Source: a virus (lineage: Duplodnaviria; Heunggongvirae; Uroviricota; Caudoviricetes). Taken from it: a DNA stretch of 64,000 bases. The notes below the pieces were generated by a model, which was given only the letters and a program-made list of their open reading frames with translations, did not search any database and was not told where the DNA came from. The position numbers were made by a program, and so were the translations under genes. The stretch lies in the IMG/VR virus record IMGVR_UViG_2541047860_000002; one strand, written 5' to 3'. Positions 22,712-50,339 of the stretch are shown here, in pieces (the first letter of the stretch is position 1; the number at the start of each line of letters is the position of its first letter).

Positions 22712-22745
22712 TTAACTTTAAATAATGCCAATTATTTAAAGTTAT
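22712..22745. other. lox-like recombination site TTAACTTTAAATA-ATGCCAAT-TATTTAAAGTTAT
   Basis: 13-bp arms (12/13 inverted match) around an 8-bp asymmetric spacer, ~150 bp upstream of cre; outer ATAACTT-like arms as in loxP. Confidence 0.7.
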
Positions 22746-24019: not shown

Positions 24020-25528
24020 TTATATATCCAGATCAGGCATTTCGATATCCGCCAGAACCTGATCTCGGAAAGTTGCCATTTCGGCACCAATATCTTCATT
24101 AGCAGGCACATAGTCCACCAGCATAGTGAAGCAGTAGGTATCCCATCGGTCAGGCGATTTGATGTTTAGCTTTTGCCGCATGTGCTCTTTGCGCATCATC
24201 GCCATTTTCCCTTCTTCATTCAGTAAAAAGGGGATTTTTGACGCTTGCTCTGCCGTTTTAGGGTCACTGTCTATCCGCATACGCCCTGACTTTATGGCAT
24301 CACGCGCCATAATATTTGCGTAGGCACGCTGATTAACAAATCGCTCCCTGTCTTTGTTCGCAAACATGGGTTTTCCCCACCGAATACGTACCGGGTTCGC
24401 ACCACGACGCACCAACTGCGCACACGTATCAGAACCAAAACCATCAGCATCAACCGCGATTGTTATATTCGGGTATTTTTCCGGCGTACATTCGTTATAT
24501 ATGAAGTCAGCAAAGGCCAATGGGTCCATAGTGCCAGGCATCTCCATTACCTTAAAGTTAACAACGCGACGCTTATCCCTGTGACCAGATACCTTGCAGA
24601 TGTTGAGGACCGACTTATCTCGCCCATTACCAACGTCAGCCGTTGCCACCCATCCCCAGTTTTTCTCCAACAACACCTTGCGGCGAGCAGCGCGATCGCA
24701 TTCATCACGACCAAGCAAATAGCCGTTAATTTCTCGTGGGAACTGACCAAGCACCTTGACCATGTACTCAATAGAATCGCGCCCGCCATATTCCAGAAGC
24801 TTCTGCTTGATGAATTGTGGTGTGACGAACGGTGATTCTTCCGAGTTAAGAACAATTGCTGTCCAGATCCCTTTCGGGTTGTCTGGGGTTTTTGCTTGAG
24901 AATGGTGCGAATCGTAGAAATAACCACTTGGCCTTGTTGGCTGGGATAGCATCAACATCCGGTTATCTTCTTCAGTAAGAGCACCGGTCATTACGCCGAT
25001 CGCCTTATCAGATATACCAGATGCTTCGTCCAGAATTAGAAGCAAATGTGCCGCGTGTTCCCCCGCCAGCGCTTCTTCGTTGCCGAGTCGATAACCTTTG
25101 CAGAGAACTTCCCAAATCCCCTTACGGGAGCGCTCATAAAACATGGTGTCAGAGAGGACAAAATAGGTCTGCAACCACCCATGACGCTTAACTGCATTCG
25201 CCCAATACTGTTTAACGTATTTGAATACGCCTGTTTTTACCTGGCCTATCTTGTTAGCAACAATGATGACACGGGCATCGGGGAACAGGATCATAAAAAT
25301 CAACAGCAACATCGCGGTAAGGGACGACTTCCCCGTTCCGTGTCCGGACGTGACGGTCGTCCTACTCCCCGTTTCCTGCACTGACTGAATGATCTGCTGC
25401 TGCTGGTGGGAGGGGAACATCCCAAAAATATCGACAACAGCCTGGGTAAAGTTGTAGCGGTATTTGATTACCATATCGCGCCAGCGTGGATCGCTGGTGA
25501 CGCATTTAATCTTGCGCCCGCCAGCCAT
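24020..25528 (-). CDS. pacB: Terminase large subunit (PacB-like)
   Basis: Walker A SGHGTGKSS, Walker B LLILDEASG; size and position after pacA. Confidence 0.8.
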   Translation of the reverse strand: MAGGRKIKCVTSDPRWRDMVIKYRYNFTQAVVDIFGMFPSHQQQQIIQSVQETGSRTTVTSGHGTGKSSLTAMLLLIFMILFPDARVIIVANKIGQVKTGVFKYVKQYWANAVKRHGWLQTYFVLSDTMFYERSRKGIWEVLCKGYRLGNEEALAGEHAAHLLLILDEASGISDKAIGVMTGALTEEDNRMLMLSQPTRPSGYFYDSHHSQAKTPDNPKGIWTAIVLNSEESPFVTPQFIKQKLLEYGGRDSIEYMVKVLGQFPREINGYLLGRDECDRAARRKVLLEKNWGWVATADVGNGRDKSVLNICKVSGHRDKRRVVNFKVMEMPGTMDPLAFADFIYNECTPEKYPNITIAVDADGFGSDTCAQLVRRGANPVRIRWGKPMFANKDRERFVNQRAYANIMARDAIKSGRMRIDSDPKTAEQASKIPFLLNEEGKMAMMRKEHMRQKLNIKSPDRWDTYCFTMLVDYVPANEDIGAEMATFRDQVLADIEMPDLDI

Positions 25529-26892
25529 TAATCATCCTCCGGCGGTTCTATCGCGATATCATCATCTCCGGCGTCATACCCTGCATCAGATGCATCATAA
25601 TCACCGTAAATTTCAGCCGTTGCCGAAGGGTCAATATCCAGCTCTTCGTCGTTGGCCTCGAATTCTCCAGCTTTACGCTCGCCATTGCGGTCGTAATCTC
25701 CGCACCCCAATTCTTCAACAATGGTTGCCACATCCGCCCGGCGCTCTGCCAGCCATTGCGGATGGTTAGCCTGAAGCGTTGCAAACTCCCTTGCCTCTTT
25801 GTCCAGCTGTTCATCATCAACATCATTGACGTCAGAAACAGGTGGTTCGAGAAGAGTGATAGCTTTCGCCGCGCGCGCCGCGAGGATAGCCGGGACGCTG
25901 ACCCCCTGGCGCTCGATGTATTCAGCAACACCGATATCATCCAGTTCCTCGCGCTCACGCATACGTATAGCGGCGGCGATAACTCTGGCAGCGCGTGCGT
26001 CAGCGCCAATGCGATATTCAATCTCTTTGCCACGCTGTTCGGCCTGTAGGCGTGCTAATTCGAGTTTTTCTCTGGCCTCAGCCTCTTTGAATGCTTGCTG
26101 GCGAGCGCTCTGACGAAGCTTTTCATCCCCCTGTCGCAGCTTTTGTTCGGACTGATATATAGCTGCCAACCTACTGATAAAATCATTCATGTAGTAGGCC
26201 GCGTCACTGATTAGACCGAGAAGGCGCTGCCCAGGGTGCATTCCTTCTGGCTCTTTATCGCCCAAGGCGTCTATTTCCGCCTGTAGACGTTCGGCCTCCT
26301 GATCAACAATGCTTTGATACTGAAGTGCGCGCTCTTGCGCCATTTGAATTGCTAACCGCAGGTGTTCTTCTGCGCCGTTCTTCATCATGTCGCGAGCCAC
26401 ATTCGTAGTGGGCAATGTGGCACGTTGCACAGCACCGCCAGGGATCATTGCTGAAGATCCCTCAATTTTTGGGGCGCTTTTATCTTCTTCGGGGATCATT
26501 TTCGCCATTTTTTCGCGCAATGATCTCCTGACAGATTCTTTTATCTCATTGTTATTATTTGCATTATTTTCATGATCCGAAGTTTTCTTTCTCGGCATAC
26601 TTCGGAAAGAACCTGCGCCCTGCGAATTGTCAATTTCTGTAAATTTTGTTTTTTCTGCACCCTCTTCCAGCTTTTTTGTTGCTCTTCCCGCCCGTTTTTT
26701 TTCAGGTGATTTGGTGCTTTTTTTTGTTGTCTTTACCTGCGACCGCACCTCATTTTTTTTCATATTGAGATGCTTTCTGGCTGTATTGAAGCTAAGGCCA
26801 TGCTCCTCACAGTATTCCTTTACAGTGATCCCTTTTTCTTCACGCAACGCTATAAAGCGGGCGCGGTGCTCCTCCCAATTAACCAGACTCAT
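25528..26892 (-). CDS. pacA: Terminase small/pac-recognition subunit (PacA-like)
   Basis: N-terminal HTH; cluster of 5 GATC sites inside the 5' third; directly upstream of pacB. Confidence 0.7.
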   Translation of the reverse strand: MSLVNWEEHRARFIALREEKGITVKEYCEEHGLSFNTARKHLNMKKNEVRSQVKTTKKSTKSPEKKRAGRATKKLEEGAEKTKFTEIDNSQGAGSFRSMPRKKTSDHENNANNNNEIKESVRRSLREKMAKMIPEEDKSAPKIEGSSAMIPGGAVQRATLPTTNVARDMMKNGAEEHLRLAIQMAQERALQYQSIVDQEAERLQAEIDALGDKEPEGMHPGQRLLGLISDAAYYMNDFISRLAAIYQSEQKLRQGDEKLRQSARQQAFKEAEAREKLELARLQAEQRGKEIEYRIGADARAARVIAAAIRMREREELDDIGVAEYIERQGVSVPAILAARAAKAITLLEPPVSDVNDVDDEQLDKEAREFATLQANHPQWLAERRADVATIVEELGCGDYDRNGERKAGEFEANDEELDIDPSATAEIYGDYDASDAGYDAGDDDIAIEPPEDD

Positions 26893-27281
26893 AAAGCAAC
26901 ACCACGCTTTTTAACGGCGGCATTCCACAGCTTATTCGCCATGTCCACCAGCTCTCGTTGCTCTTTTCGCGCCTGTTCGACTGATTTCCTGCTACAGTTT
27001 TTAACCAGTAAGCTACCGTATTCAGGCGTGCGCCCGCGCACCTTGAACTGATATCCGTTCAGACCATGTAGCCAGTATTTTCGTGGATACACACGATCAT
27101 CCAGCTCACAGATTGCCCTGCTTGAACGAACAAAATGACGAATGATGTTAGTTACACTTACTCGTGAAACATGGAGATGAGGGTATTTTTCTTTGGCGAG
27201 AGTGGTAATTTCAGTGACTGTCAGATAGCAGTCAGCCCTGATCATGATATCCGCAATTTCTGCGCTGCTGATTTGTTCCAT
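26889..27281 (-). CDS. Small protein in Lpa (late promoter activator) position
   Basis: 130-aa ORF overlapping pacA start; operator-like motif upstream. Confidence 0.35.
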   Translation of the reverse strand: MEQISSAEIADIMIRADCYLTVTEITTLAKEKYPHLHVSRVSVTNIIRHFVRSSRAICELDDRVYPRKYWLHGLNGYQFKVRGRTPEYGSLLVKNCSRKSVEQARKEQRELVDMANKLWNAAVKKRGVAL

Positions 27282-27357
27282 TAATCCCCCGGGCAGGAAA
27301 TGACCGAGGGGATGATAATGAGAATGTTAAAACTGTATAGACTGGTAAAAAGATGAT

Positions 27358-28811: not shown

Positions 28812-28887
28812 TGGTGGCCCCTACCGGACTTGAACCGGTGACCGTGCGATTATGAGTCGCCAGCTCTAACCACTGAGCTAAAGGGCC
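28812..28887 (-). tRNA. tRNA with CAU anticodon (Ile2/Met-type, close to E. coli ileX)
   Basis: GGCCCTTTAGCTCAGTGGTTAGAGC...CTCATAA...GGTTCAAGTCC...CCA cloverleaf folded by eye. Confidence 0.8.
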
Positions 28888-28896
28888 AGATTACTG

Positions 28897-29028
28897 TTAA
28901 TTCCGCTTACGCTTTTTGCCAGGACCGCGTAAGGCTTTTGCTGCTTGCTCGACCCCATATGCAACCACCAGCAGAAATAAAAATGTCCACCAAGGGTTCT
29001 TGTCGGCAAACGTCCAAAATTCCATCAT
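28897..29028 (-). CDS. Small hydrophobic peptide (43 aa) between tRNA and plp
   Basis: MMEFWTFADKNPWWTFLFLLVVAYG... then basic tail. Confidence 0.2.
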   Translation of the reverse strand: MMEFWTFADKNPWWTFLFLLVVAYGVEQAAKALRGPGKKRKRN

Positions 29029-29041
29029 GTTATCTATTTGG

Positions 29042-29869
29042 TTATTTCACCGGAACAAACGGAACAGCGGTATTACTGGTCATATACTGCGGTAGCGTTC
29101 CGTTCCATTTGTTGATCGCTTCCAACTCCATAACGCCGGGGTTCTGGCGCAGAGCCTCACCGCGTAAACGAATGGCATCAGCTTCAGCCTGGGCTTTTGT
29201 GCGAATGGCATCGGCCTGTCCAGCAGCTTCTGCGCGCAGCATGTTGGCTTCTGCTTCGCGTTGCTTGACTTCCTGCTCGCGTTGCAGAGTTTTCTGGTTC
29301 GCCGTGACTTTGGCATTAATGCTGTCGATAACGGTTGGCGGGTACTCCGGCTTGCCCACATATGAGAGGCTCATTACCTGAATACCGATGGGCGTCATTT
29401 CTTCCTGAATGTCTTTAAGGGCTGCATCAAGCAATTCAGATTTGCCACCGTCGATAAATTTGTCGGTGGTCATTTTGCTGGCTAACCGGTTCAGAGCATC
29501 TGCAACCTTCTGGCGTAGATCGGTATCAGTAATATCATCTACACCTTTGCGATAGGTCTGAAATACCGTTGTGACTTTTGCTGGATCAACCTTGTAGGCT
29601 ACGCCGATGTGGTAACCAATGGTTGTTCCGTCGCTCATCTGGAAGCTGAACGGCTCATCGTATGTCTTCATTTGCTTAAAGGTCGGGAAGATATAAACTT
29701 CAGTATTCAAGCCTGTCCAGTAGCGACCAACGCCAACTACTTCACCGATACCTTTATCATCCCCCAGCTTATTTACTTTGATCCCTACGTTACCTGGCTC
29801 TACCCGATCGCATCCGGTCAGACATAAAGAACCAAAAATAATCGCTGCACTAATCAACGTTTTTTTCAT
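29042..29869 (-). CDS. plp: SPFH/band-7 domain lipoprotein (P1 Plp-like)
   Basis: Lipobox ...SLCLTGC; prohibitin-like core and coiled-coil tail; located inside tRNA cluster as in P1. Confidence 0.75.
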   Translation of the reverse strand: MKKTLISAAIIFGSLCLTGCDRVEPGNVGIKVNKLGDDKGIGEVVGVGRYWTGLNTEVYIFPTFKQMKTYDEPFSFQMSDGTTIGYHIGVAYKVDPAKVTTVFQTYRKGVDDITDTDLRQKVADALNRLASKMTTDKFIDGGKSELLDAALKDIQEEMTPIGIQVMSLSYVGKPEYPPTVIDSINAKVTANQKTLQREQEVKQREAEANMLRAEAAGQADAIRTKAQAEADAIRLRGEALRQNPGVMELEAINKWNGTLPQYMTSNTAVPFVPVK

Positions 29870-30086
29870 TAATCAATTTCCTGGTTTTTTCACGAAAAAA
29901 GACTACTGCAAAAGCCGGGTAAATGAGCGCGAGAAGGACTCCCAACAATACAAGTATTGTGCTGTCAGATGAGATCATATTTGGCAAAAGCCAAACATAC
30001 AGAACCAGTGACACAATCAAACAGAGGACGACATAAATATATAACCGCACCCATAGCGTTCGACATTTGTTCGGATTGTTCTGCAT
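29850..30086 (-). CDS. Small membrane protein upstream of plp
   Basis: 78-aa ORF with two hydrophobic helices. Confidence 0.45.
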   Translation of the reverse strand: MQNNPNKCRTLWVRLYIYVVLCLIVSLVLYVWLLPNMISSDSTILVLLGVLLALIYPAFAVVFFREKTRKLINEKNVD

Positions 30087-30349
30087 CCTCTCACTCCATT
30101 ATTTACCGAATAAAAAAGCTGCGGTGCCTGGTGCCTCCAGGTGACGTTAACCAGTTAACAATTAACGCCGGGATGTTTGACTTAACCACTAAGGAGGATT
30201 GTTTTAACTGTTCCGCGTGCGCTTAGCCGCATTCACCGCAATGGTAAGAGCACTTGGCTGGCTGGGCGGCGATGACGCCTGTACGCATTTGGTGATCCGG
30301 TTCTGCTTCCGGCATTCGCTTAATTAGCCAAATACTCTTAACGTTGCAC

Positions 30350-30436
30350 TGGCGGAGAGTAATGGAATCGAACCATCATCGCTTGCGCAATGGGACGGTT
30401 TTCAAGACCGCTTGAGCACCATGCTCCCTACTCTCC
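30350..30436 (-). tRNA. tRNA-Ser-like (UGA anticodon, long variable arm, atypical short D-loop)
   Basis: Perfect 7-bp acceptor stem, anticodon loop CTTGAAA, T-arm GATGG-TTCGATT-CCATT, CCA encoded. Confidence 0.55.
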
Positions 30437-30533
30437 AGTGATTGTGATGGTCGGTGCTGAACTCCGACACAGGGTTGTAGCAAGCCCCGCAAAGCGCGCA
30501 CTACTGTAGTTGCGGCACATCAGCCTGTGCATT

Positions 30534-30633
30534 CACCACAATGTTGAGAACACTGGTTGTCACGCTGCAACGCAACATTTATTCATAGATTGGGATATGA
30601 CCCCGTTACGCCAGTGTTCTCAACGTTGTGGTG
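30534..30633. repeat. 23-bp inverted repeat (CACCACAATGTTGAGAACACTGG / rc) with 54-nt loop; related copies at ~30233 and ~30765
   Basis: 22/23 match between 30534-30556 and rc of 30611-30633. Confidence 0.6.
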
Positions 30634-30838
30634 CCGGTTACGGTTCCGGCCAGGCCTCTTCCTCAACGGGGTGTTCTCCATACGGACTACCGTTTATTGG
30701 TCGTTCCTGCGGTTTATGTTGTGAAGCCAGATGCTTATCTTCTGGTTGCTTCAAAGAGCTGCACTTCATCACAACGGTAAGAGCACTCGATGCATTTAAG
30801 CCAAGCCCCATAAGGGAGAATGCCCTTACCTGTTGTGT

Positions 30839-30914
30839 TGGTGCCGGTTAACGGACTCGAACCGCTGACATCCTGCTTACAAGGCAGGCGCTCTACCAAC
30901 TGAGCTAAACCGGC
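30839..30914 (-). tRNA. tRNA-Thr (UGU)
   Basis: GCCGGTTTAGCTCAGTTGGTAGAGC...CTTGTAA...GGTTCGAGTCC...CCA. Confidence 0.85.
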
Positions 30915-30918
30915 AATT

Positions 30919-31005
30919 TGGTGGGGAGTGATGGAGTCGAACCACCCGAGTCGCAATGACAGTAGATTTACAGTCTACCCCGCTACCCCTACGGACTAAC
31001 TCCCC
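30919..31005 (-). tRNA. tRNA-Tyr (GUA), type II
   Basis: GGGGAGT acceptor, anticodon loop CTGTAAA, long variable arm, GGTTCGACTCC T-loop, CCA. Confidence 0.85.
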
Positions 31006-31010
31006 TAAAT

Positions 31011-31087
31011 TGGCGATGGTGGGTGGATTCGAACCACCGACCGACAGCTTAGAAGGCTGCTGCTCTATCCTACTGAGCTACACCATC
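31011..31087 (-). tRNA. tRNA-Arg (UCU)
   Basis: GATGGTG acceptor, GCTCAGTAGGATAGAGC D-arm, anticodon loop CTTCTAA, GGTTCGAATCC, CCA. Confidence 0.8.
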
Positions 31088-35520: not shown

Positions 35521-38500
35521 TTAAGCCGCATCGGCGATTATTTTACGCAGTTCATCTACCGAGTAACGCGTAGATACCATCCACGCCGGACGGTCAAAGT
35601 CCACATCCGCGACAGGATTCACTTCAAAATTCCAGAAACGCCCGCCAATCTTCTTAATCGCGTCTTTGGCGTTCCGTATTGTCGAGGAACCTGGTTGGTC
35701 GGCAATGAGATAAACCGCGCCAACGTCCTCGCTGACGCTCCACCAGCGCCCGCGAACACGCGCCTTAGCGCGAATAGGCTTATCATTAACCACAATGATA
35801 TAGTCATCATTTGCCGCTTCATCAGCTCTGGCTTCAGCCACTGCCGCCTGCTCTTCTCTTTTGCTTTCAGCCTGCTCAAGCCTTTCCGCGATCTCTGATT
35901 CAGTGGCCCCGCCGTTTTTCAGCGATACATAGTCCTGCCACGTTGCCGATTTGAGCGTATCCGGCAACTCATTCACATAGTCGCCATCTTTCAACTCACG
36001 GGCGCGGCGGGTAGCCATTTCTACCAGGCGATTAACAGAAACAGCATCAGCAAAATCGTCCTTACTAATGTGTTTTTCATCAAATGCATTGATGACAGCC
36101 CCCACCTTAATCCACTGTGCTGCCGGTGATTCCAGGGGGTTATCAGCCTGGACAATGGCGAGTTTCGCTCCATCTACCCCATTATTCGCCAACTGTTCCA
36201 GCGCCGCCCATCCATCTGCATCACTGAGTGATTTATATTGCTCAAACAATGCATCGCGCCAGGCCACCAGCGCAGAACGTGTTTTTTCGATCTTCGCCTT
36301 AATTTTCGCGATCTTGACCTGATTAAACATCCGTTCAATATCATCGATATTGCTAAAGGCTTTCATCCTGCCCTGGAATAAACGGTATGCCAGCACGGTC
36401 CTCCAGAATGATTCCAGACCTTCTCCGGACGGTTTACGGAACAAGCTAAGAATATCTTCAGAAGTGACTTTATTAAGCGAACGACCTGACAGACCACGCC
36501 CAGCCATCCAGTTTTCGAACTCCTTGGCAACATCATCCATCGTTGCCTGTGCGCCCCATGCCTGCATTCCCTGGATGTAATCATACCCATACAATGCCTG
36601 GAGGAATCCCTCTCCGTCCACGATATTCAGCGGGTTATCACTGGCTTGTATTTTTGCCACTTCACGCTTCAGCGCCTCGTCGTTGCCATCAGGATATATC
36701 CATCGTTCAGGTGCTATATCCGATGCTCGCCCGATTTTTTGGCCTATCACGCCATCATAGGTCGATGACAGCGCGATCTGCCCATCATCTGTGCGATAGG
36801 CCCAGTATTTAATAGCTGATCCACCGCCCCATGCATTACCAGGTTTACCAGCAATAACATTCATTACCCCATTGCGAATAGCATCATAGAACTGATCGCG
36901 AGTAAGTATTGTTGATAGCTGGTGGCACTGAACACCACGCGCAGCCGTTGCGCGCGATTCAGCAACCCCCTCTTCAAAAGTTACCGCTTCAATCACAGAG
37001 TCAAACGGCAATGTAACGATTGACCCCGGTGATCGAGCGTAACGACTTGCTCTATCCAGCCAGGCGATACGACAGATGTATTGTGCTTTTTCACCGTCAA
37101 TTTTTTCCACCCGGACAATCGCTGTTGTTTCGCGATCATCAATGACTGCACGGTAATAACTACCTTTATGCAACAGGATATTCTTGTCAGTGCGCATATA
37201 TTCCTGTGGGTTCTGAATAACATCGATACTGATATCCAGCACACCAGACTTAATAGCGCGCTCCACATCACCACGAGAGCGTTTCATTATGGTATCCGCG
37301 TCTTTTGCCCTGGTGATCGCAAACCGCAGCACCCGCGCACGTTTTCTGTAGCTACTCAACTGCTCAAGCGCGTATTTTTGCCCATTCCTGTTCGTACCCG
37401 CTTTTATCAGGTCGTCAAGATTGCGCTGGTAATACTCTATCTGTTCCATCGCGCTTTTCAGTTCTGTCTCCATCATGCCGATATCTTTTCCGGCGGCGTT
37501 TGCCGCTTTCAGGTAGATATCGAGAGCATTGTTGGCCTCGCGCTGTGCTTTCAGTTTCAGACGTTCTTCACGCTCTTGCGCCTGGCGAGCCATGATTGCG
37601 CGGCGTTCTTCCGGGTTTGCCGCCAGCATAATGGCGCGTTCATCAGCATCATCCACATCACCATTGGCGATCTCTGACATGTCGGAGGTCATCACCATCT
37701 TGATCCAGTCTTTCTTACGTTTCAGCGTATCCAGACGGAAGTCGTCGAATGTGCCTTTGCCACAATAGTAGTGAACATTGACCTTCTCTTGCGGTGAACC
37801 TACGCGCGCACCGCGCCCATTTCGTTGGTCGATACTGGCTGGTGTCCAGGGTAGTGTCAGGTGGTGGATATCGGTTGTCCCGATGTGCAGGTTAATACCT
37901 ACTTCAGCCTTCTTGTTACAGATTATGATGCGCGTGCGACCTTCGTTATAGTCGGCGGCAATACCTTCCATGCCCTCAAGGCCAGCATCATTTTTAGCTG
38001 AGAGATAATCCTCATATTGGGCAAGTTTGCTGTAGTAGGTTTCCCATGCCCCTTCTTTGTATTCACCGTTTTTGTTTGGAGTAGGTTCGGTCGGCTTATT
38101 CACCTTCTTCAGCTTGATGCCGCCAGCCTGGCTAACTGTCGTCGCATTGATAATGCCAATCTCCTGCTCCGGCATTTGCAGTGCACTGGCGATAATACGG
38201 CGCAGCTTCTGGTGCTGGGCTTTTTCATCAATAAAGACGATCTGCTTACCGTTCTTCAGACCTTCACGAAGATTTTCGATCAGCGCGGCATACTTCGGCG
38301 GGATGGGGTGCGATACCTGCTGCATATCAATACCGGCAGCCGCAATGGCCTTCAGTATTTCAGCTTCCAGTTCAATGCTGGCACGTATTTCAACATGCGT
38401 CGGATGTTCACTAAAAGCGGTCTTCACTACCTTGCTGGTACGCGTACTGACCAGCCCGCCAGCGCCGTCTTCCTCGGCCTCATCAACATCATCTGCCACT

Positions 38501-41500
38501 TTACCACCAGCTACTTTTGGCAAGGCATCAGCAATAGCTTTTACCTGGTCTGCAAGCTCAACGGGGAACTGGAATGTAATCGCACTGGCATACAGATCCG
38601 GGTCTATAGCAACCTTGTCCATGTCACGGATGATGGAGAAGATGAAATCATCCGGTTTGTCGTTAGTGATATGCCCGTTTTCATCGACTGTCAGCTCATC
38701 ATTGCGACTTAACTCCTGAGCACGCTTACGAAGTTCTTCATAAGCAGACTCCTGCTCCCCTGTCATCGGGATCTGCAAGGTGTTCTCGATGATGTCGGGA
38801 ATTTTAACCGTCGCTCCGACATCTGCGGCAGTCTTCAGAGTGGTCCAACGATGGAAAATACCACGCAGGCCATCAAGGTTCTGGAAGCCCACCAGCCCCT
38901 GCTTCTCTTCCACTTCCCCGGAAATTTTCTGGACCTGAACTGTGGCTGTTTTGCCAAACACACGAACGAAATCATCAGGCGTAATGATGCCCATGCGCAT
39001 CCACTCTTCCTGCGGAATGACAGTAGACAGCATGTTGAAGGCATCAATCGGACTGTTCACCAGCGGAGTTGCCGTCAGCATGACTACACCACGTCCGTTG
39101 TTGCGTTTCATCATGTACGCAGCTTTTACAGCCATGTCGCGGGCCATCTTGGATACTGCCGGGTTAGGCAAATATGCCAGTTGTCCCGCTTCACGCCCGG
39201 CATTAAAGGAGTTGCGGTAGTTATGCCCCTCGTCGGCAATCACGCTATCGAAGTTCATATCCTCAAAGTACGGGATATTCTGCTTCTTCGTTGTACCGGT
39301 ATTCGCGGCCTGATCCTTAATCTTGTTCTTCTTCTGTGCATCACGGTGTTTGCCAGACGCCAGGTCAAGACGCCCCATTTCCACAGCATTAAAGACAGCT
39401 TGCTGTGAGTTCTCCTCGATGGTTTTTTCTCGTAGCGGGATAGACGCGAATTGTTCTTTTGTCATGATGACCGTTCGCCAATTTGACGACGGGATCATGT
39501 TCATGCGCTGAACGATAACGGCGCTGGCGGACTCTTTCACAACATTTCTGGTAAGAGGCTGCCCGTTACTGTCGAGGCGTGGTTCGCCATTTTCATCAAG
39601 CACCGGCGCGGTCAGAATATTTCCGCTGTCATCACGAACTTCATCCAAACCGATAAACATCATATTGGCGAAGGCATCAGCACTGTAGAAACTCTGTGCC
39701 TCGTGATACCAGTTCTGATAAACCGCCTTCGGAACAACAATACACGTGCGTTTAGTGCGACCTGTTTCGAAGTTATACGCCTCAAGCGCAAGCGCGGTCG
39801 TGGTTTTACCCAGCCCGGTACCAAATCCCATGATGCCGCGCCCATCTTCTGACAAGCGACGAACTTCTTCATTTTGATAAGTCAGAGGAATGCGCTTTCC
39901 ACTAATCCCTTCCAGGCCAAGCGGTGCGTTAGAGTGCGTGAACGGAATGAAGCCATTGAATGCGTCGTTATAGTCACGGGCTATCTGATCCGCCTGCGGG
40001 TGGGTGCGTAACCAGTCGTTAAAGCTAACTTCCAGTTGAGCAATTTTATCCAGGTACTCGTTAGCGTTCTGCCCACGCGGTTTAACACCGTTCAGGTAGT
40101 TTTCTAACTGGTTCAGGAAGCCGTCTTTATTGTTGGCCTTCTTGAACTCATTCCCGTTTTTGCCGTTTACGGTTCGTAGCTGATAGCCGGTAAATACCCC
40201 GTCCTTACCTTCGTAATCGTCCGGAGATACCAGAATGCCATCGACGACCTTCAGATCAGGTTCAGTGTACTTAAACTCGTCATAGCCCTGCTCTGCCAGG
40301 AACTCTTTTATCAAGCGGCGATCCAGCCAGCGGGCATTCAGATTAACGGTGACTTTATTTAGTGGCGTGAAAATGCGTTTCTCTTCGATTTTCGCCAACT
40401 GACGCTCAAAGTTCGCTTTCTGCTCACCTGTTGACGCATCACGCCAGCCCACCAGCAATGCTGTTTTGGTTGCAATATCGCCGCTGGTGGCGCGGTCCAT
40501 CGGCAGCAGGCAGCCATACCCATCAATAGCGATATCATCAAATTTCGCTAGGTATTCAAGGGCCGCGTCGTCGTCCTCTGGCAATTCACCAGCAAACGCC
40601 TCACGAAAGTCGCCCAGCGTTATAGGATTAAGGGCTACATCACTGAAAAGATGTGCTATCACTTGTTCAGGACGTGTAAAGTCAATACCGGCAGCACCAT
40701 CCGTTACATCAAGTCGCCCTGCCAGAAGGTCAGAAGTGGAACCATCCTGTTTCACATTGCCAGTGAACGTCATCCAGTTTTTAGCGCCAGCTTCAGCAAG
40801 CCCATTCAGCTTAATCGCGTGCGGTGGTCCATACTTCGCAACTTCTGCTGCCGCCAGGCGGGATGCATCTGCCAGTTTGTCATCAACGTTCACCCCCAGG
40901 TTACGCAAATCAAGTGCCTTGTTGATCAACTGCCCTATCAGCGCACCGCGCATAACGCGCTCTCTGTCTTTTTCTCGCTGCTTGCCAGCAAAGCGAATCA
41001 TTGCTGCCACTTCATCACTGACAACCGATGGATAGTCGGACGCGATCGCCGATATCTGGTCCCATGACAAAGCCAGAATCCCGTTTGTTGACTGGAACGC
41101 GATCTGCAGATCGCCAAACGTCGAAACACCATATCGACTTACATCAAGCGCGGAGGATTTGGTTGTCGTGTCCTTAACCCATTTCAGGCCATCAAACTCA
41201 TGCCAGATACCGCCTACAAGGCGTTTATCGCCCACTTTCGCGCCCTGCCATGCCTGAGTAGTTACGCCGAGCAAATCCCAATTGATGCGACTATCAAAGC
41301 GACGAGATAGCGCGGTTTTCATCGACTCATTGGATACACGGCCGTCTTTTTTCACCACTAGGGTATTGCGGAAGCTGGTACGTTCCATGTCGCCGTAAAC
41401 AAACCGCTTCCCTTCGGTTGTAAACCATTTTCCTTTGAGGAAGGTATCCCAAAGGACGTTTGCCGATTTGAGCGTGGCATCATCCGTGTCGGGGATCATC

Positions 41501-42357
41501 TCCAGGAAGGTTTCCGGGTGTTTACGCAATACCCATACGTCCACCACGGTATCTGTACCGGATTCGCTGAACGTACCAGAAGGCATACGATGTGCGGCCA
41601 AAAATTCCGCTTTACGGCTGACTTTATCGCGCAATTTTTTGTATTTCGTACCATCGGTCATGCCATTCGGCACCACCAATACGATAAGCCCACCAGGCTT
41701 AACCTTGTCGATCGTGCGCAACACAAAATAATTGCCAACGTTCTTCTCGTTTGCATATGCCGGATCAAGCCCGGCAACGCCGGAACGCCCTTCACCAAAC
41801 GGTACGTTACCAACAGCGTGGTCATACATTGCATCTTTCGCCGCCAGCGCCTCAAACGCCCCGATATTCACATCGTCTTCCGGGTGCAAAAGCTGGTTTA
41901 TTCGACCAGAAATCGGAGACAGTTCGGCGCTGGTCATTATCATGCCCTGCCGTTTTGTCTCCTGGAAAATACCTGTGCCCGCTGATGGTTCCAGTACGTG
42001 CCCGCCATCAATACCGTAGTCAGCAAACAGATCCCATATACCTTCAGCCATAAACTGTGGCGTGTAGTATTCGTATTGGCTGCCCTCACCATCTGTCAGG
42101 CCGCCTTCACCGGTATACCCGGCAAGAATCTGACGTTGTTCGTCAGTTAATTTCGCCCCATCGAAGCCGGGCGGAAGGGAATTAAGAAGATTTACTGCGG
42201 CGTTGTTTGCTGCACGGCGTGTTTTCTGAATACTGACGCCATCGGCTTTCCTGACGCCAAAGGTCGCAACAGCACGTAATTTATGCAACCGACTAACAAT
42301 TTCAATCAGTTCGCCTAAGCTGGAGGCTTCACTGATTGAATGAAGTAATTTGTCCAA
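35521..42357 (-). CDS. darB: DarB-like giant N6-adenine methyltransferase + SF2 helicase (capsid-packaged antirestriction protein)
   Basis: 2278 aa; MTase motifs (EPSAGTG, GNVPFG); helicase motifs GFGTGLGKTT, DEGHNYRN, LTATPLVNS, QRNGRGARVGS. Confidence 0.85.
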   Translation of the reverse strand: MDKLLHSISEASSLGELIEIVSRLHKLRAVATFGVRKADGVSIQKTRRAANNAAVNLLNSLPPGFDGAKLTDEQRQILAGYTGEGGLTDGEGSQYEYYTPQFMAEGIWDLFADYGIDGGHVLEPSAGTGIFQETKRQGMIMTSAELSPISGRINQLLHPEDDVNIGAFEALAAKDAMYDHAVGNVPFGEGRSGVAGLDPAYANEKNVGNYFVLRTIDKVKPGGLIVLVVPNGMTDGTKYKKLRDKVSRKAEFLAAHRMPSGTFSESGTDTVVDVWVLRKHPETFLEMIPDTDDATLKSANVLWDTFLKGKWFTTEGKRFVYGDMERTSFRNTLVVKKDGRVSNESMKTALSRRFDSRINWDLLGVTTQAWQGAKVGDKRLVGGIWHEFDGLKWVKDTTTKSSALDVSRYGVSTFGDLQIAFQSTNGILALSWDQISAIASDYPSVVSDEVAAMIRFAGKQREKDRERVMRGALIGQLINKALDLRNLGVNVDDKLADASRLAAAEVAKYGPPHAIKLNGLAEAGAKNWMTFTGNVKQDGSTSDLLAGRLDVTDGAAGIDFTRPEQVIAHLFSDVALNPITLGDFREAFAGELPEDDDAALEYLAKFDDIAIDGYGCLLPMDRATSGDIATKTALLVGWRDASTGEQKANFERQLAKIEEKRIFTPLNKVTVNLNARWLDRRLIKEFLAEQGYDEFKYTEPDLKVVDGILVSPDDYEGKDGVFTGYQLRTVNGKNGNEFKKANNKDGFLNQLENYLNGVKPRGQNANEYLDKIAQLEVSFNDWLRTHPQADQIARDYNDAFNGFIPFTHSNAPLGLEGISGKRIPLTYQNEEVRRLSEDGRGIMGFGTGLGKTTTALALEAYNFETGRTKRTCIVVPKAVYQNWYHEAQSFYSADAFANMMFIGLDEVRDDSGNILTAPVLDENGEPRLDSNGQPLTRNVVKESASAVIVQRMNMIPSSNWRTVIMTKEQFASIPLREKTIEENSQQAVFNAVEMGRLDLASGKHRDAQKKNKIKDQAANTGTTKKQNIPYFEDMNFDSVIADEGHNYRNSFNAGREAGQLAYLPNPAVSKMARDMAVKAAYMMKRNNGRGVVMLTATPLVNSPIDAFNMLSTVIPQEEWMRMGIITPDDFVRVFGKTATVQVQKISGEVEEKQGLVGFQNLDGLRGIFHRWTTLKTAADVGATVKIPDIIENTLQIPMTGEQESAYEELRKRAQELSRNDELTVDENGHITNDKPDDFIFSIIRDMDKVAIDPDLYASAITFQFPVELADQVKAIADALPKVAGGKVADDVDEAEEDGAGGLVSTRTSKVVKTAFSEHPTHVEIRASIELEAEILKAIAAAGIDMQQVSHPIPPKYAALIENLREGLKNGKQIVFIDEKAQHQKLRRIIASALQMPEQEIGIINATTVSQAGGIKLKKVNKPTEPTPNKNGEYKEGAWETYYSKLAQYEDYLSAKNDAGLEGMEGIAADYNEGRTRIIICNKKAEVGINLHIGTTDIHHLTLPWTPASIDQRNGRGARVGSPQEKVNVHYYCGKGTFDDFRLDTLKRKKDWIKMVMTSDMSEIANGDVDDADERAIMLAANPEERRAIMARQAQEREERLKLKAQREANNALDIYLKAANAAGKDIGMMETELKSAMEQIEYYQRNLDDLIKAGTNRNGQKYALEQLSSYRKRARVLRFAITRAKDADTIMKRSRGDVERAIKSGVLDISIDVIQNPQEYMRTDKNILLHKGSYYRAVIDDRETTAIVRVEKIDGEKAQYICRIAWLDRASRYARSPGSIVTLPFDSVIEAVTFEEGVAESRATAARGVQCHQLSTILTRDQFYDAIRNGVMNVIAGKPGNAWGGGSAIKYWAYRTDDGQIALSSTYDGVIGQKIGRASDIAPERWIYPDGNDEALKREVAKIQASDNPLNIVDGEGFLQALYGYDYIQGMQAWGAQATMDDVAKEFENWMAGRGLSGRSLNKVTSEDILSLFRKPSGEGLESFWRTVLAYRLFQGRMKAFSNIDDIERMFNQVKIAKIKAKIEKTRSALVAWRDALFEQYKSLSDADGWAALEQLANNGVDGAKLAIVQADNPLESPAAQWIKVGAVINAFDEKHISKDDFADAVSVNRLVEMATRRARELKDGDYVNELPDTLKSATWQDYVSLKNGGATESEIAERLEQAESKREEQAAVAEARADEAANDDYIIVVNDKPIRAKARVRGRWWSVSEDVGAVYLIADQPGSSTIRNAKDAIKKIGGRFWNFEVNPVADVDFDRPAWMVSTRYSVDELRKIIADAA

Positions 42358-44568: not shown

Positions 44569-45531
44569 TCATCCCCTAAATCCCGCAGGGATTGACCAAT
44601 CCTCCCGGTCAAATTCAGACCGATAGCCACGTTGTTTCATCAGGTCAAAGGCTTCACCAATGGTTACACACCCCTGGGAGCCAGAATAATCCATTGAGAA
44701 ATCCAGGGCACTGGATTGTTTAGGCTTATTCACTGCGGTAGCGGCACTACGTATCCATGCAAATTTTTTTGCCAGCTTTTCAGCGGTACGATACAGAGCC
44801 TGCCGTTTTGCGTGCCCCTCGTCTGAACGACGCTTTGCAGCTCTCGCTTTTGCCGCCGCCAGGCAGTGGTTGGTATGTTCTTCCCTGATTACTGTTTTTT
44901 TATCCAGTCCCCCATTATCCGCTTGAGTACTATCTGCTGGTGAAGCCTTTGGCTGAACCGCGCATGATCTTTCTCTTCTTTTGGCTATAGAGTGACTCTT
45001 ATTTTCTATTGGCTGTTCATTTTGAACATGGGGGGACTTGTTCAATTTGAACAGGGGGTTCCCAGTTTCAAAAAAATAACGTACCTTTGAAATCAATTGC
45101 TTAACCAGCTTTGTGGCGTTGGCAAATTTGATGCCCTGCTTACCCCCTATCTCCATTGCTACATGAATGAAGTGGAGAAATTGTGTCGTAAACCGATATA
45201 CGTTACACACCTGGGCATTGTTATTCGCTACCTGATGTTGCTTAACAAGCATTCCGCACTTCGTCGCTTCAGCAAATGCCCGGCGCACAGTAGAAATGCT
45301 GCGTCCTGTAATCTCGGACATATCAGCATATGAGCGACGGATCATGTATTCATCGGTAGACCCTGCCAGGTTGGCGAACTCGGCAATAATGGCGCTATGT
45401 GAAGGGGAAAGAAGACCGCTATGACGAGCAAAAAAACTCAACTGATGACCTTTGATTTTTTTGTGGTATTCAGTGTTGTTTTTATACTCAGAAGTGTTGA
45501 AAGTTACTGAAACTGAATTTAAAATACTCAC
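44569..45531 (-). CDS. HTH DNA-binding protein, RepL-like replication initiator or repressor candidate
   Basis: N-terminal helix-turn-helix-like ...SEITGRSISTVRRAFAEATKCGMLV; operator copy j upstream. Confidence 0.35.
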   Translation of the reverse strand: MSILNSVSVTFNTSEYKNNTEYHKKIKGHQLSFFARHSGLLSPSHSAIIAEFANLAGSTDEYMIRRSYADMSEITGRSISTVRRAFAEATKCGMLVKQHQVANNNAQVCNVYRFTTQFLHFIHVAMEIGGKQGIKFANATKLVKQLISKVRYFFETGNPLFKLNKSPHVQNEQPIENKSHSIAKRRERSCAVQPKASPADSTQADNGGLDKKTVIREEHTNHCLAAAKARAAKRRSDEGHAKRQALYRTAEKLAKKFAWIRSAATAVNKPKQSSALDFSMDYSGSQGCVTIGEAFDLMKQRGYRSEFDREDWSIPAGFRG

Positions 45532-45626: not shown

Positions 45627-45704
45627 GGCAGTCGCTACCGGAGCAGTGACCGCGATCCTACTCGATCCCATCCACCAGGATCAACAGTGTATATAAATAC
45701 ACTA

Positions 45705-48490: not shown

Positions 48491-49888
48491 TTAGTTTTCC
48501 GTACGGCAATTATTTAGAACTGTAGAATTTTCAAACATAGCAAAGTTCAGACCTTTCCCTTCGCCAAATTCACCCTCAATTTCATCAGATACAGCAGACA
48601 AAATACAACGCAGATCAACATCGCCACCGCCGAACATATCGCCCAATGCCTGTTGTTTATGAGTCAGCTCGTCGTTGATTTTTTGCGCCATTTTTTTGAA
48701 TGCTGCCCCCATACGCTTCGCACTGCGATTATTTGCTACGATGAATAGCGCCAATGCCTCAGCTTCCGGTGTACTGTCGCCGAATAACCCCCTTTGGGCG
48801 ATCACTTCTTCAACGGCCTGACCGTTGTCTTTGGCTTCACGTACAAGATTAATTGCTTCCTGGAGTGCTGCTATCGCCTGTGTATCCAGGCCATTAACCT
48901 GCTCTATACCGTCCACTAAGCCTGTTACTGCGTCATGGTGAGCGTCGCCAGACAGCGACTGCATTTGCGCAAAATCGCTGGCTGCCGTATTTAATGCGGT
49001 CAGGATATTACGCATTTCCGGATCTGGCTCTTCCGACACCAGCCGAACAAGCCTTTCATCCTTGTACGCTTTGGCAAAAATTGCATTCTGGATGCGATCG
49101 ATAAGCTGTTTCGTGGGACGCCCATCGGCAGTAAGCAAGCCTGCCGTCGCTGTATCGCCAATTTCGCACAAAAACGCACGAATAAACGCATCATTGGACC
49201 GCGCCAGCAGATTTCCATCATCTGAAGGATTAAATAGCGCCATGACGCTCTCAGTGAGAAATTGCGCATCCGCATACGCTTTTTCACTTGCTGCCATCTC
49301 TTGCAGATCGCTAATGTTTGAATCGCGGGCAAATTGAGCGCGGTCTACATCTGTGAGTCTTTCTCGCACCAGTACGGGCATAGACATTTGCGAAATTTCG
49401 TCAGGATTCAGACCAAACTCTTTCGCATGGTCGATCAGGTACTGGCGATACTCATCCGCCTGTCCTTGCTCATAGGCACGCCAGATACCCATACTCCTTC
49501 CGTTGCCGGATTCAACAACGTTGTCCGGACCAACTATCGGCGCTCCGTGGCTGCTCATACCGGAATCCGTTAATTGTGCCGGGCGTAAATTGGAGGCAAT
49601 ACGGTTAACCTGGAGTTTGCTGGATAGCCGGGTACGATCTCGTGGTTGGAGTTCTTCCGGGAAGGCCGGGTTAATCGTACCGTCAAGGTTGTTCGAAATG
49701 ATCAGACTGCTGGCATCAACGACCTTAAAAGCCGTCTTTACCTCTGCACCTTTGCTGGTGACTACGTAGCTACTTCGCCCCAAGCGTGTTTCTTTCCTCT
49801 CTAATGAAGAAACCAGAGCAATGACGCTGTTAATATCTGTGGCCCCGGAAAGCGCAGAAGTAACTGATTTGTTCAAAATACACTCCAA
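48491..49888 (-). CDS. Hypothetical virion-associated protein (Ddr-like position)
   Basis: 465-aa ORF downstream of DarA-like gene. Confidence 0.3.
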   Translation of the reverse strand: MECILNKSVTSALSGATDINSVIALVSSLERKETRLGRSSYVVTSKGAEVKTAFKVVDASSLIISNNLDGTINPAFPEELQPRDRTRLSSKLQVNRIASNLRPAQLTDSGMSSHGAPIVGPDNVVESGNGRSMGIWRAYEQGQADEYRQYLIDHAKEFGLNPDEISQMSMPVLVRERLTDVDRAQFARDSNISDLQEMAASEKAYADAQFLTESVMALFNPSDDGNLLARSNDAFIRAFLCEIGDTATAGLLTADGRPTKQLIDRIQNAIFAKAYKDERLVRLVSEEPDPEMRNILTALNTAASDFAQMQSLSGDAHHDAVTGLVDGIEQVNGLDTQAIAALQEAINLVREAKDNGQAVEEVIAQRGLFGDSTPEAEALALFIVANNRSAKRMGAAFKKMAQKINDELTHKQQALGDMFGGGDVDLRCILSAVSDEIEGEFGEGKGLNFAMFENSTVLNNCRTEN

Positions 49889-49970: not shown

Positions 49971-50339
49971 TTACCCGGCATAACCGTTAGCTTTCACCCA
50001 GCTTATGGTCTGCTCTTTAGCCTGCTCCAACGTAAGGAACTCGCCAACATAGTTTGAGATCCCACGCAGCGCATCAATAAATTCCATTTGTGTGGACTTT
50101 GTGAACACACCGCCCAGGAAGTCAGTCACTATCTTAGGGACTTCATCTACAACAGGATCAGCCTGTTGTTGCGGTTCCGCTGCCGGTTGCGCGGCAGTCC
50201 CCAGGCCCAATTTCAGCATCACATCAACAATCTGCTTACCAATGGTGACGCGTTGCAATACTGGCGCAGTTTTCTGCGCCTGCATTAGATCTGATAGCTC
50301 TTTACCTAATTTCAGGCGGTCTAAAACAGAGATGGTCAT
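49971..50339 (-). CDS. Small protein (DdrA-like position, ~13 kDa)
   Basis: 122-aa ORF overlapping stop/start with upstream gene. Confidence 0.3.
   Translation of the reverse strand: MTISVLDRLKLGKELSDLMQAQKTAPVLQRVTIGKQIVDVMLKLGLGTAAQPAAEPQQQADPVVDEVPKIVTDFLGGVFTKSTQMEFIDALRGISNYVGEFLTLEQAKEQTISWVKANGYAG

What the first reader, a model, noticed from the sequence alone, without database searches (positions are those of the whole stretch)
26443..26576. Cluster of five GATC sites inside pacA: candidate pac site
GATC occurs at 26443, 26456, 26494, 26522 and 26573, within 134 bp of the 5' third of pacA, against roughly one expected per 256 bp. The P1 pac site lies in pacA and is built from Dam-methylatable TGATC(A/G) hexamers.
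Basis: partly seen in the sequence, partly recalled or inferred. Interest (0 to 1): 0.45.

Follow-up and report, generated by a model that had tools for sequence, protein, structure and literature searches.

The report
Likely packaging start site of D6-like phage
The five GATC sites inside the small-terminase gene (pacA) of this D6-like phage-plasmid are very probably its DNA-packaging start (pac) site, the counterpart of the well-studied phage P1 pac site but built from a different Dam-methylatable motif (GGATCA/TGATCC, not TGATCA/G); this has not been shown experimentally.

Summary

In one sequence the cluster is only weakly unusual. The window-wide scan gives P=0.22 and a synonymous-codon shuffle of pacA gives P≈0.012.

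Comparison settles it. In relatives only about 62% identical across this linker, all 20 GATC-core bases are invariant, against about 42% of neighbouring bases (p≈1e-7). That includes 7 of 7 third-codon positions. The sites sit in all three reading frames and on both strands, so the constraint is on DNA, not protein.

All thirteen enterobacterial pacA lineages examined, and more weakly a Vibrio one, carry GATC arrays in the same part of the gene (18.7 versus 3.8 per kb).

The D6 clade uses GGATCA/TGATCC (about GGGATCATT), not P1's TGATC(A/G). It also lacks P1's tight 4+3 layout.

Gene order lpa-pacA-pacB-c1-rox matches P1, with rox 3.7 kb downstream. The D6 reference genome encodes a Dam-type methylase.

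The cleavage position and methylation control are inferred by analogy, not shown. I file it as a new member of a known kind, of modest interest.

The parts
26443..26577 (.). Cluster of five GATC (Dam) sites, the candidate pac recognition region. It covers gene nt 316-450 of pacA.
   Evidence: All 20 core bases are invariant in four lineages whose flanks are about 62% identical. In 29 distinct D6-clade sequences, three sites are retained in 29/29 and two in 28/29.
26571..26580 (-). Site 1 (gene nt 316): TCGGATCATG, with hexamer GGATCA on the coding strand. Reading frame 0 (S-D-H).
   Evidence: CGGATCA is an invariant run across the D6 clade.
26519..26528 (-). Site 2 (gene nt 368): GGAGATCATT, with hexamer AGATCA here and GGATCA in relatives. 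Reading frame 1 (R-S).
   Evidence: GATCATT is an invariant run. The site is lost by a T>C change in one natural variant, L086.
26491..26500 (+). Site 3 (gene nt 396): GGGGATCATT on the + strand, which reads AAATGATCCCC on the coding strand. Reading frame 2 (M-I-P).
   Evidence: AAATGATCCC is an invariant run. The site is lost by a T>C change in one variant, L082.
26453..26463 (-). Site 4 (gene nt 434): GAGGGATCTTC, with hexamer GGATCT here and GGATCA or AGATCA in relatives. Reading frame 1 (G-S).
   Evidence: The GATC core is invariant while the encoded residue changes G<->R.
26440..26450 (+). Site 5 (gene nt 447): AGGGATCATTG on the + strand, which reads CAATGATCCCT on the coding strand. Reading frame 2 (M-I-P).
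   Evidence: AATGATCCC is an invariant run.
26526..26573 (-). A 48-bp spacer between sites 1 and 2 that is 75% A+T. It holds a weak IHF-like 13-mer, TAACAATGAGATA (26542-26554), and TGTCAG (26528-26533). This is a possible bending or cleavage zone; the assignment is inferred and weak.
   Evidence: A+T content is. The 13-mer matches 7/9 specified IHF consensus positions, against 8/9 for the annotated P1 site AAACAAAGAGTTA. ATAACA is invariant in the clade. TGTCAG is also in the P1 cleavage zone but is not conserved in the 75% relatives.
25528..26892 (-). pacA, the small terminase (pacase A) subunit, 454 aa. It contains the cluster.
   Evidence: It is 21% identical to P1 PacA (E=6e-10). No Pfam family is found at E<=0.001.
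26758..26892 (-). Predicted N-terminal helix-turn-helix of PacA (aa 1-45). The putative recognition helix is F-N-T-A-R-K-H.
   Evidence: Sub-threshold Pfam HTH hits appear in three divergent PacAs. A single-sequence AlphaFold2 model gives helices 6-20, 24-31 and 35-41 with pLDDT 81-85. Foldseek top hits are HTH domains but none is significant.
24020..25528 (-). pacB, the large terminase (pacase B) subunit, 502 aa.
   Evidence: It is 56% identical to P1 PacB over 488 aa. There is a sub-threshold Terminase_6N hit.
26889..27281 (-). lpa, the late-promoter activator, directly upstream of pacA and overlapping it.
   Evidence: Pfam BPP1_LPA, E=5e-57.
22713..22744 (+). rox, the Dre recombinase site and counterpart of P1 lox. 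It lies 3.7 kb from the cluster in the pacA->pacB direction.
   Evidence: An exact match was found and it is annotated in AY753669. In P1, pac to lox is 4.0 kb.

Best explanation
The cluster is the recognition part of the pac site of a D6-like P1-family phage-plasmid.

The proposed mechanism, by analogy with P1, runs as follows. The N-terminal helix-turn-helix of PacA binds the repeated GATC-containing motifs, here about GGGATCATT (that is, GGATCA/TGATCC), present in both orientations. Binding or cleavage probably depends on adenine methylation of the GATC cores by host Dam and by the phage's own Dam-type enzyme, so that cutting is delayed until late in infection. PacA and PacB then cut nearby, plausibly in the A+T-rich 48-bp spacer between sites 1 and 2. 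Headful packaging proceeds through pacB and c1 towards rox. The first headful therefore carries rox in its terminal redundancy and can be circularised by Dre.

What is shown here:
- the sites exist;
- their cores are under DNA-level selection;
- homologous genes carry equivalent arrays;
- the gene context matches P1.

What is inferred: PacA binding, methylation dependence, the cut position and the direction of packaging.
For: (1) Identity and context.
- The window is 99.3% identical to phage D6 over pacA.
- The gene order lpa-pacA-pacB-c1-rox-dre equals P1's lpa-pacA-pacB-c1-lox-cre.

(2) Position.
- The P1 hexamers lie at pacA nt 195-351, with cleavage at nt 276-285. The D6 cluster is at nt 316-450.

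(3) Selection on DNA.
- Relatives from Shigella dysenteriae, E. marmotae and E. fergusonii are 61-62% identical to D6 across this linker, yet keep GATC at exactly nt 316, 368, 396, 434 and 447.
- 20/20 core columns are invariant against 40-45% of non-core columns (Fisher p about 1e-7).
- 7/7 third-codon positions in the cores are invariant against 35% elsewhere (p=0.001).
- Adjacent residues change (R<->G) while the core stays. The motif falls in frames 0, 1, 2, 1, 2 and on both strands.

(4) Family-wide pattern.
- 15 PacA lineages, 19-74% identical to D6 PacA, carry 4-10 GATC in gene nt 120-479. The pooled density is 18.7/kb against 3.8/kb in the rest of the gene.

(5) Motif specificity.
- The exact 9-mer GGGATCATT occurs only twice in 64 kb, and both copies are in the cluster.
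- The D6 clade, Enterobacter plasmid p60214CZ_1 and IMG/VR contig L037 all use GGATCA/TGATCC and have the helix T[AG]RK[HK]L. TGATC(A/G) lineages have NTARR[YE]L.

(6) Methylase.
- The D6 reference genome encodes a D12-class (Dam-type) adenine methylase (PF02086, E=2e-56).

(7) P1 precedent.
- P1 has seven TGATCA/G hexamers, an IHF site and methylation-controlled cleavage. Synonymous destruction of the hexamers lowers P1 packaging about 9-fold (PMC10028697).
Against: - No packaging ends, cleavage or binding data exist for D6 in anything I could read. The D6 genome paper (PMC5800970) is not held.
- In this sequence alone the clustering is weak: window-wide P=0.22.
- The strict P1 hexamer TGATC(A/G) is absent.
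- The layout, with spacings of 52, 28, 38 and 13 bp, is not P1's two tight arms separated by about 95 bp. There is no helical phasing.
- The IHF-like element matches only 7/9 specified positions.
- The helix/hexamer co-variation maps to a single clade, so it counts as one evolutionary event.
- The motifs force certain amino acids (D-H, M-I-P, G/R-S), so a protein contribution to their conservation cannot be fully excluded.
- The Dam-type gene lies outside the window and is known only from the reference genome.
Confidence: 0.8

Rival explanations
1. The conserved GATC array is a different Dam/SeqA-dependent cis-element that happens to lie in pacA. Examples would be a methylation-sensitive control of pacA/pacB expression, a SeqA sequestration site, or part of a replication or partition function. 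On this reading the true pac site lies elsewhere.
For: Clustered GATC sites are also the hallmark of SeqA-bound origins and of Dam-controlled promoters (established knowledge). DNA-level conservation shows function but not which function. A second tight GATC cluster exists in the window, upstream of the repL-like gene at 45654-45682.
Against: - No sigma-70-like promoter is found in or next to the cluster.
- The array recurs specifically in the 5' third of pacA in all the enterobacterial lineages examined, including P1, where that array is the experimentally defined pac site.
- The hexamer flank changes together with the PacA N-terminal helix. This is expected if PacA reads the sites, not SeqA or RNA polymerase.
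- The D6 plasmid and lytic replication genes lie elsewhere.
Confidence: 0.1
2. The cluster is a by-product of protein coding or chance. The linker of PacA happens to encode D-H, M-I-P and G/R-S peptides whose codons contain GATC.
For: The window-wide scan statistic is not significant (P=0.22). The amino-acid sequence alone predicts about 2 GATC in this segment. M-I-P occurs twice and is conserved.
Against: - The five sites lie in three different reading frames and on both strands.
- All seven synonymous (third-position) bases within the cores are invariant, against 35% elsewhere in a linker whose residues otherwise vary freely.
- Neighbouring residues switch R<->G while GATC is kept.
- The same enrichment is seen in PacA proteins sharing only 20-36% identity.
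Confidence: 0.04
3. The array is a PacA-binding pac recognition element, but methylation plays no regulatory role in D6. GATC would then be simply part of the binding motif inherited from a P1-like ancestor.
For: Nothing in the sequence tests methylation dependence. The D6 motif is longer and asymmetric (about GGGATCATT), so contacts outside GATC may dominate.
Against: - The four-base GATC core is the only part of the motif shared by the two specificity classes. It is the most strictly conserved part: 20/20 columns, while flanks vary.
- D6 keeps its own Dam-type methylase, as P1 does.
- A Betaproteobacterial small terminase next to a distant PacB relative has no GATC at all.
Confidence: 0.15

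Closest known systems
Bacteriophage P1 pac site (and those of the near-identical P7-type phage-plasmids)
   Same: - It lies inside the 5' part of pacA, upstream of pacB.
- It is built from several GATC-containing hexamers.
- The phage encodes a Dam-type methylase.
- A lox/rox recombination site lies about 4 kb downstream in the pacA->pacB direction.
- The same pacase pair is present: PacB 56% identical, PacA 21%.
   Different: - The hexamer is GGATCA/TGATCC (asymmetric, extended to about GGGATCATT) instead of TGATCA/G.
- There are five sites spaced 52/28/38/13 bp rather than 4+3 tight arms (7-15 bp spacing) separated by about 95 bp.
- The cluster lies about 100 nt further into the gene.
- The IHF-like element is weaker, at 7/9 against 8/9.
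- The predicted recognition helix reads NTARKHL, not NTARRYL.
GATC arrays in pacA of other P1-family phage-plasmids found here (Serratia sp. PL17 contig L012; IMG/VR L078, L038, L037; Enterobacter hormaechei p60214CZ_1, L011)
   Same: The arrays occupy the same gene position and carry the Dam core. L011 and L037 share the D6-type GGATCA/TGATCC hexamer and the RK-type helix.
   Different: Most of these have a clear bipartite layout, with a 12-bp-periodic left arm of 3-6 sites. The D6 clade lacks that arm. None of these arrays is experimentally characterised, as far as the literature I could search shows.
pac sites inside small-terminase genes of other headful phages (P22 gene 3, SPP1 gene 1, Sf6); from established knowledge
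   Same: The recognition site is embedded in the small-terminase gene, and packaging is unidirectional and headful.
   Different: Those sites are not built from Dam sites and are not known to be methylation-controlled. Their terminase families are unrelated.

Membership tests
P1-type pac site (PacA/PacB pacase recognition site) | Lies within the 5' part of a pacA homologue that is immediately followed by pacB | tested here: met
   The cluster is at nt 316-450 of pacA. PacA is 21% identical to P1 PacA (E=6e-10) and PacB is 56% identical. Synteny is lpa-pacA-pacB-c1.
P1-type pac site (PacA/PacB pacase recognition site) | Multiple Dam (GATC) sites clustered within about 160 bp | tested here: met
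   There are five GATC in 135 bp, against 2.0 expected from the protein sequence (P=0.012). The cores are invariant in diverged relatives.
P1-type pac site (PacA/PacB pacase recognition site) | Hexamer consensus TGATC(A/G) | tested here: not met
   On the coding strand the D6 hexamers are GGATCA, AGATCA, TGATCC, GGATCT and TGATCC. The clade consensus is GGATCA/TGATCC.
P1-type pac site (PacA/PacB pacase recognition site) | Bipartite layout: four and three closely spaced hexamers flanking a central region of about 90 bp that holds the cut sites | tested here: not met
   The spacings are 52, 28, 38 and 13 bp, and there are no tight arms. Other lineages (L011, L012, L078, L038) do show two arms.
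P1-type pac site (PacA/PacB pacase recognition site) | IHF binding site next to the cleavage region | tested here: inconclusive
   The best analogue, TAACAATGAGATA (26542-26554), matches 7/9 specified positions of WATCAANNNNTTR. The annotated P1 site matches 8/9. The ATAACA core is conserved in the clade.
P1-type pac site (PacA/PacB pacase recognition site) | Cleaved by PacA+PacB, with cleavage depending on adenine methylation; virion DNA ends map there | not testable with these tools
   No end-mapping data were found. One IMG/VR contig starts right after site 1, but a single case is compatible with chance. The metagenome scan gave one uninformative hit.
P1-type pac site (PacA/PacB pacase recognition site) | Phage encodes its own Dam-type methylase (P1 Dmt) | tested here: met
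   D6_63 in the reference genome MF356679 is a D12-class N6-adenine methyltransferase (PF02086, E=1.9e-56). The gene lies outside this window, and no DPPY-type ORF is present in the window.
P1-type pac site (PacA/PacB pacase recognition site) | Site-specific recombination site (lox) a few kb downstream in the packaging direction | tested here: met
   rox is at 22713-22744, 3.7 kb from the cluster in the pacA->pacB direction. The P1 distance is 4.0 kb. The direction of packaging itself is inferred from P1.
Dam-controlled promoter or SeqA-sequestered origin | GATC sites overlapping promoter hexamers, or an origin with initiator repeats and an AT-rich unwinding element | tested here: not met
   No sigma-70-like promoter lies within 25400-27300 apart from one upstream of lpa. 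There are no iteron-like repeats. The replication genes lie elsewhere in D6.

The most novel reading that the evidence does not exclude
The D6 clade represents a second specificity class of Dam-dependent pac sites. On this reading an asymmetric GGATCA/TGATCC motif (about GGGATCATT) is read by a PacA whose recognition helix has changed from NTARR(Y/E)L to T(A/G)RK(H/K)L. The site has also lost the 12-bp-periodic left arm. D6-type and P1-type phage-plasmids, which co-occur in Enterobacteriaceae, would then not package each other's DNA. The two pac/pacase pairs could serve as orthogonal phagemid-packaging systems.
Probability: 0.45. Interest if true: 0.5.

Novelty: new member of a known kind. Interest (0 to 1): 0.35.

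Why it matters
P1 is the classic generalized transducer and the basis of phagemid delivery systems. Its pac site is the only characterised methylation-gated packaging signal.

Showing that a distant relative keeps the logic (Dam sites inside pacA) while changing the motif has three uses:
- It gives a natural experiment on how small terminases read DNA, through one candidate helix change paired with a hexamer change.
- It predicts which host sequences D6-like phage-plasmids would mis-package. These elements are widespread in E. coli and Salmonella, and 121 PLSDB plasmids match this pacA.
- It offers a second, possibly orthogonal, pac/pacase pair for engineering.

It does not change the general picture of headful packaging.

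Tried and rejected
- **D6 genome paper.** I tried to read Gilcrease & Casjens 2018 (PMC5800970) and the P1 genome paper (PMC523184). Neither is held. I therefore cannot say whether a D6 pac site was already discussed in print. Neither GenBank record of D6 annotates one, and the D6-like plasmid paper PMC6799933 does not mention one.
- **Physical ends from contig boundaries.** One IMG/VR contig (L039/L106) starts at the base after site 1. With about 15 contig ends in the fetched flanks, a hit in the cluster has roughly 0.24 probability by chance. The one metagenome scan returned a single internal hit. I rejected this as evidence.
- **IHF consensus scan.** No match of 8/9 or better was found in the D6 cluster.
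- **Sigma-70 promoter scan.** Nothing was found in the cluster.
- **PacA family assignment.** Pfam finds nothing at E<=0.001. The N-terminus gives only sub-threshold HTH hits. A PDB profile search gave only spurious repeat-protein hits. Foldseek on the single-sequence model gave only non-significant HTH-domain hits.
- **tblastn of D6 PacA against the phage collection.** It finds only D6 itself. The link to P1 PacA therefore rests on the pairwise alignment and synteny.
- **Co-variation of helix and hexamer.** I considered treating this as independent evidence, then down-weighted it because all GGATCA-class lineages form one clade.
- **Genome-contig scan with PacB.** It returned only one locus, from Serratia.

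Full report
**What is there**

The window is a D6-like P1-family phage-plasmid.
- The ORF 25528-26892 (minus strand, 454 aa) is 99.3% identical in DNA to pacA of Escherichia phage D6. It is 100% identical to several E. coli and Salmonella plasmids.
- It is flanked upstream by lpa (Pfam BPP1_LPA, E=5e-57) and downstream by pacB, which is 56% identical to P1 PacB.
- D6 PacA is only 21% identical to P1 PacA. The pairwise BLASTP E-value is 6e-10 over the full length. A tblastn search of the phage collection does not even retrieve P1.
- c1, rox (an exact match at 22713-22744) and dre follow, as c1, lox and cre do in P1.

**The observation**

GATC is at 26443, 26456, 26494, 26522 and 26574. The span is 135 bp, at gene nt 316-450 of pacA.

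This is the densest five-site cluster in the window. A cluster this tight somewhere in 64 kb nevertheless occurs in 22% of random placements. When pacA's protein sequence and codon usage are kept and synonymous codons are shuffled, the segment is expected to hold 2.0 sites, against 5 observed (P=0.012). On its own, then, the cluster is suggestive and no more.

**Comparative test**

PLSDB holds 121 plasmids with this pacA, at identities from 100% down to 67%. Three relatives are only 61-62% identical to D6 across the linker outside the cores:
- Shigella dysenteriae (L007)
- Escherichia marmotae (L008)
- E. fergusonii (L010)

All three have GATC at exactly gene nt 316, 368, 396, 434 and 447. Across the four lineages:
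- 20/20 core columns are invariant against 40-45% of non-core columns (Fisher p about 1e-7).
- 7/7 third-codon positions inside the cores are invariant against 35% elsewhere (p=0.001).
- Most invariant runs of 6 nt or more in this region are the motifs themselves: CGGATCA, GATCATT, AAATGATCCC and AATGATCCC.
- Neighbouring codons change (AGA<->GGA, which is R<->G) while the core stays.
- The five sites fall in reading frames 0, 1, 2, 1, 2 and on both strands.

A protein-level repeat cannot produce this pattern, so the constraint is on the DNA. Among 29 distinct D6-clade sequences, three sites are kept in 29/29. Two are kept in 28/29, each lost once by a T>C change. An unrelated GATC at nt 589 is kept in only 21/29.

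**Family-wide pattern**

I used PacB as an anchor to collect pacA genes from IMG/VR, a Serratia genome and plasmids.
- Fifteen lineages, whose PacA proteins are 19-74% identical to D6's, carry 4-10 GATC in gene nt 120-479. The pooled density is 18.7/kb against 3.8/kb in the rest of the gene.
- In P1 this array is the experimentally defined pac site. It has TGATCA x4, then the IHF site and cleavage positions, then TGATCG and TGATCA x2 (PMC10028697).
- Most lineages are visibly bipartite. L078, for example, has six TGATCA at 12-bp spacing followed by four more sites.
- The enrichment is weakest in the Citrobacter and Vibrio lineages (13.9 and 11.1 per kb), and the Vibrio sites use other hexamers such as CGATCG.
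- A Betaproteobacterial small terminase next to a distant PacB relative has no GATC at all.

**How D6 differs**

- None of the five hexamers is TGATC(A/G). The clade consensus is GGATCA/TGATCC, extended to about GGGATCATT.
- That exact 9-mer occurs only twice in the 64-kb window, both times in the cluster. One-mismatch copies lie at site 2 and in the HTH-coding segment.
- The same class is used by Enterobacter plasmid p60214CZ_1 (7 of 8 sites) and by IMG/VR L037.
- These lineages share a predicted helix-3 sequence T[AG]RK[HK]L. All TGATC(A/G) lineages have NTARR[YE]L.
- The N-terminus is probably a helix-turn-helix. Three divergent PacAs give sub-threshold Pfam HTH hits, and a single-sequence AlphaFold2 model has three helices with pLDDT 81-85. 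Foldseek top hits are HTH domains but are not significant.
- All GGATCA-class lineages form one clade, so the co-variation is a single event. It is consistent with PacA reading the flanks but is not strong proof.
- The D6 layout (spacings 52, 28, 38, 13 bp) lacks P1's tight arms.

**Other elements**

The 48-bp spacer between sites 1 and 2 is 75% A+T, against 50% for the gene. It holds TAACAATGAGATA, which matches 7/9 specified IHF consensus positions. The annotated P1 site AAACAAAGAGTTA matches 8/9. TGTCAG follows 8 nt later in D6. In P1 the same hexamer lies 7 nt after the IHF site, within the cut zone. TGTCAG is not conserved in the 75% relatives, so the suggested cut zone is a weak inference.

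The D6 reference genome encodes a D12-class (Dam-type) adenine methylase. That gene lies outside this window.

**Mechanism proposed**

PacA binds the methylated motifs through its HTH. PacA and PacB then cut nearby, and headful packaging runs through pacB and c1 to rox, 3.7 kb away (P1: 4.0 kb to lox). The first headful would therefore carry rox twice and could be circularised by Dre. Binding, methylation control, cut position and direction are all inferred from P1 (established knowledge and PMC10028697), not shown here.

**Rivals**

- Another Dam/SeqA-dependent element (about 0.1). No promoter or iterons are found, and the position is specific to pacA across the family.
- A coding by-product or chance (about 0.04). 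The frame, strand and synonymous-site evidence excludes it.
- A pac site without methylation control (about 0.15). This is not testable here.

**Verdict**

- Kind: the D6 counterpart of the P1 pac site, with a diverged hexamer and layout. That makes it a new member of a known kind, with variant features.
- Prior annotation: the site is not annotated in the D6 GenBank records. I could not check the D6 genome paper.
- Interest: modest, 0.35.

Noticed in passing
L039/L106 (IMGVR_UViG_2537562191_000021), position 1; equivalent to window 26573: A 23.6-kb D6-identical contig begins exactly at the base after GATC site 1 (...TCGGATC|ATGAAAATAATGC). This could reflect a physical DNA end or coverage break at pac. 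It is a single case, though, and a contig end falling in the cluster by chance has a probability of roughly 0.24.
   Followed up: partly
window 45654-45682: This is the tightest three-site GATC cluster in the window (TTGATCCTGGTGGATGGGATCGAGTAGGATCG, 3 sites in 29 bp). It lies in the intergenic region upstream of the repL-like gene (44569-45531, minus strand), between an inverted-repeat-like AT-rich segment and a terminator-like hairpin. It may be a Dam-sensitive control or lytic-origin element.
   Followed up: no
window 26627-26648 (pacA gene nt 245-266): The block CAAAATTTACAGAAATTGACAA is almost invariant across the D6 clade and the Enterobacter relative, inside an otherwise variable linker. 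It encodes (F/L)T(E/K)xD(N/K) and contains a perfect TTGACA. Its function is unknown; it could be a further pac or regulatory element, or a peptide motif.
   Followed up: partly
window 28812-31087: ARAGORN finds five tRNA genes (Met, Ser-tga, Thr, Tyr, Arg-tct). The D6 reference annotates only Asn, Thr and Ser in the corresponding region. The window also carries about 0.5 kb more than D6 between pacA and repL, so this element is a D6 relative and not D6 itself.
   Followed up: no
L082 and L086 (IMG/VR D6-like contigs), pacA gene nt 396 and 368: Two natural variants have each lost one GATC by GATC>GACC, which changes I>T and S>P respectively. Single sites therefore appear dispensable, as single hexamers are reported to be in P1.
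   Followed up: partly
L011 (Enterobacter hormaechei p60214CZ_1), pacA nt 157-181 and 380-471: This relative has a clear bipartite array of the D6-type hexamer: three sites at 12-bp spacing, then five more about 200 bp downstream. The left arm sits in an insertion that the D6 clade lacks. This suggests D6 lost, or never gained, the periodic arm.
   Followed up: partly
window 35521-42357 (-), 50339-52321 (-), 48491-49888 (-): The window encodes DarB-like (2278 aa, SNF2 domain), DarA-like and DdrB-like antirestriction proteins, as in P1. No Dam-type (DPPY) methylase ORF is present in the window itself.
   Followed up: partly
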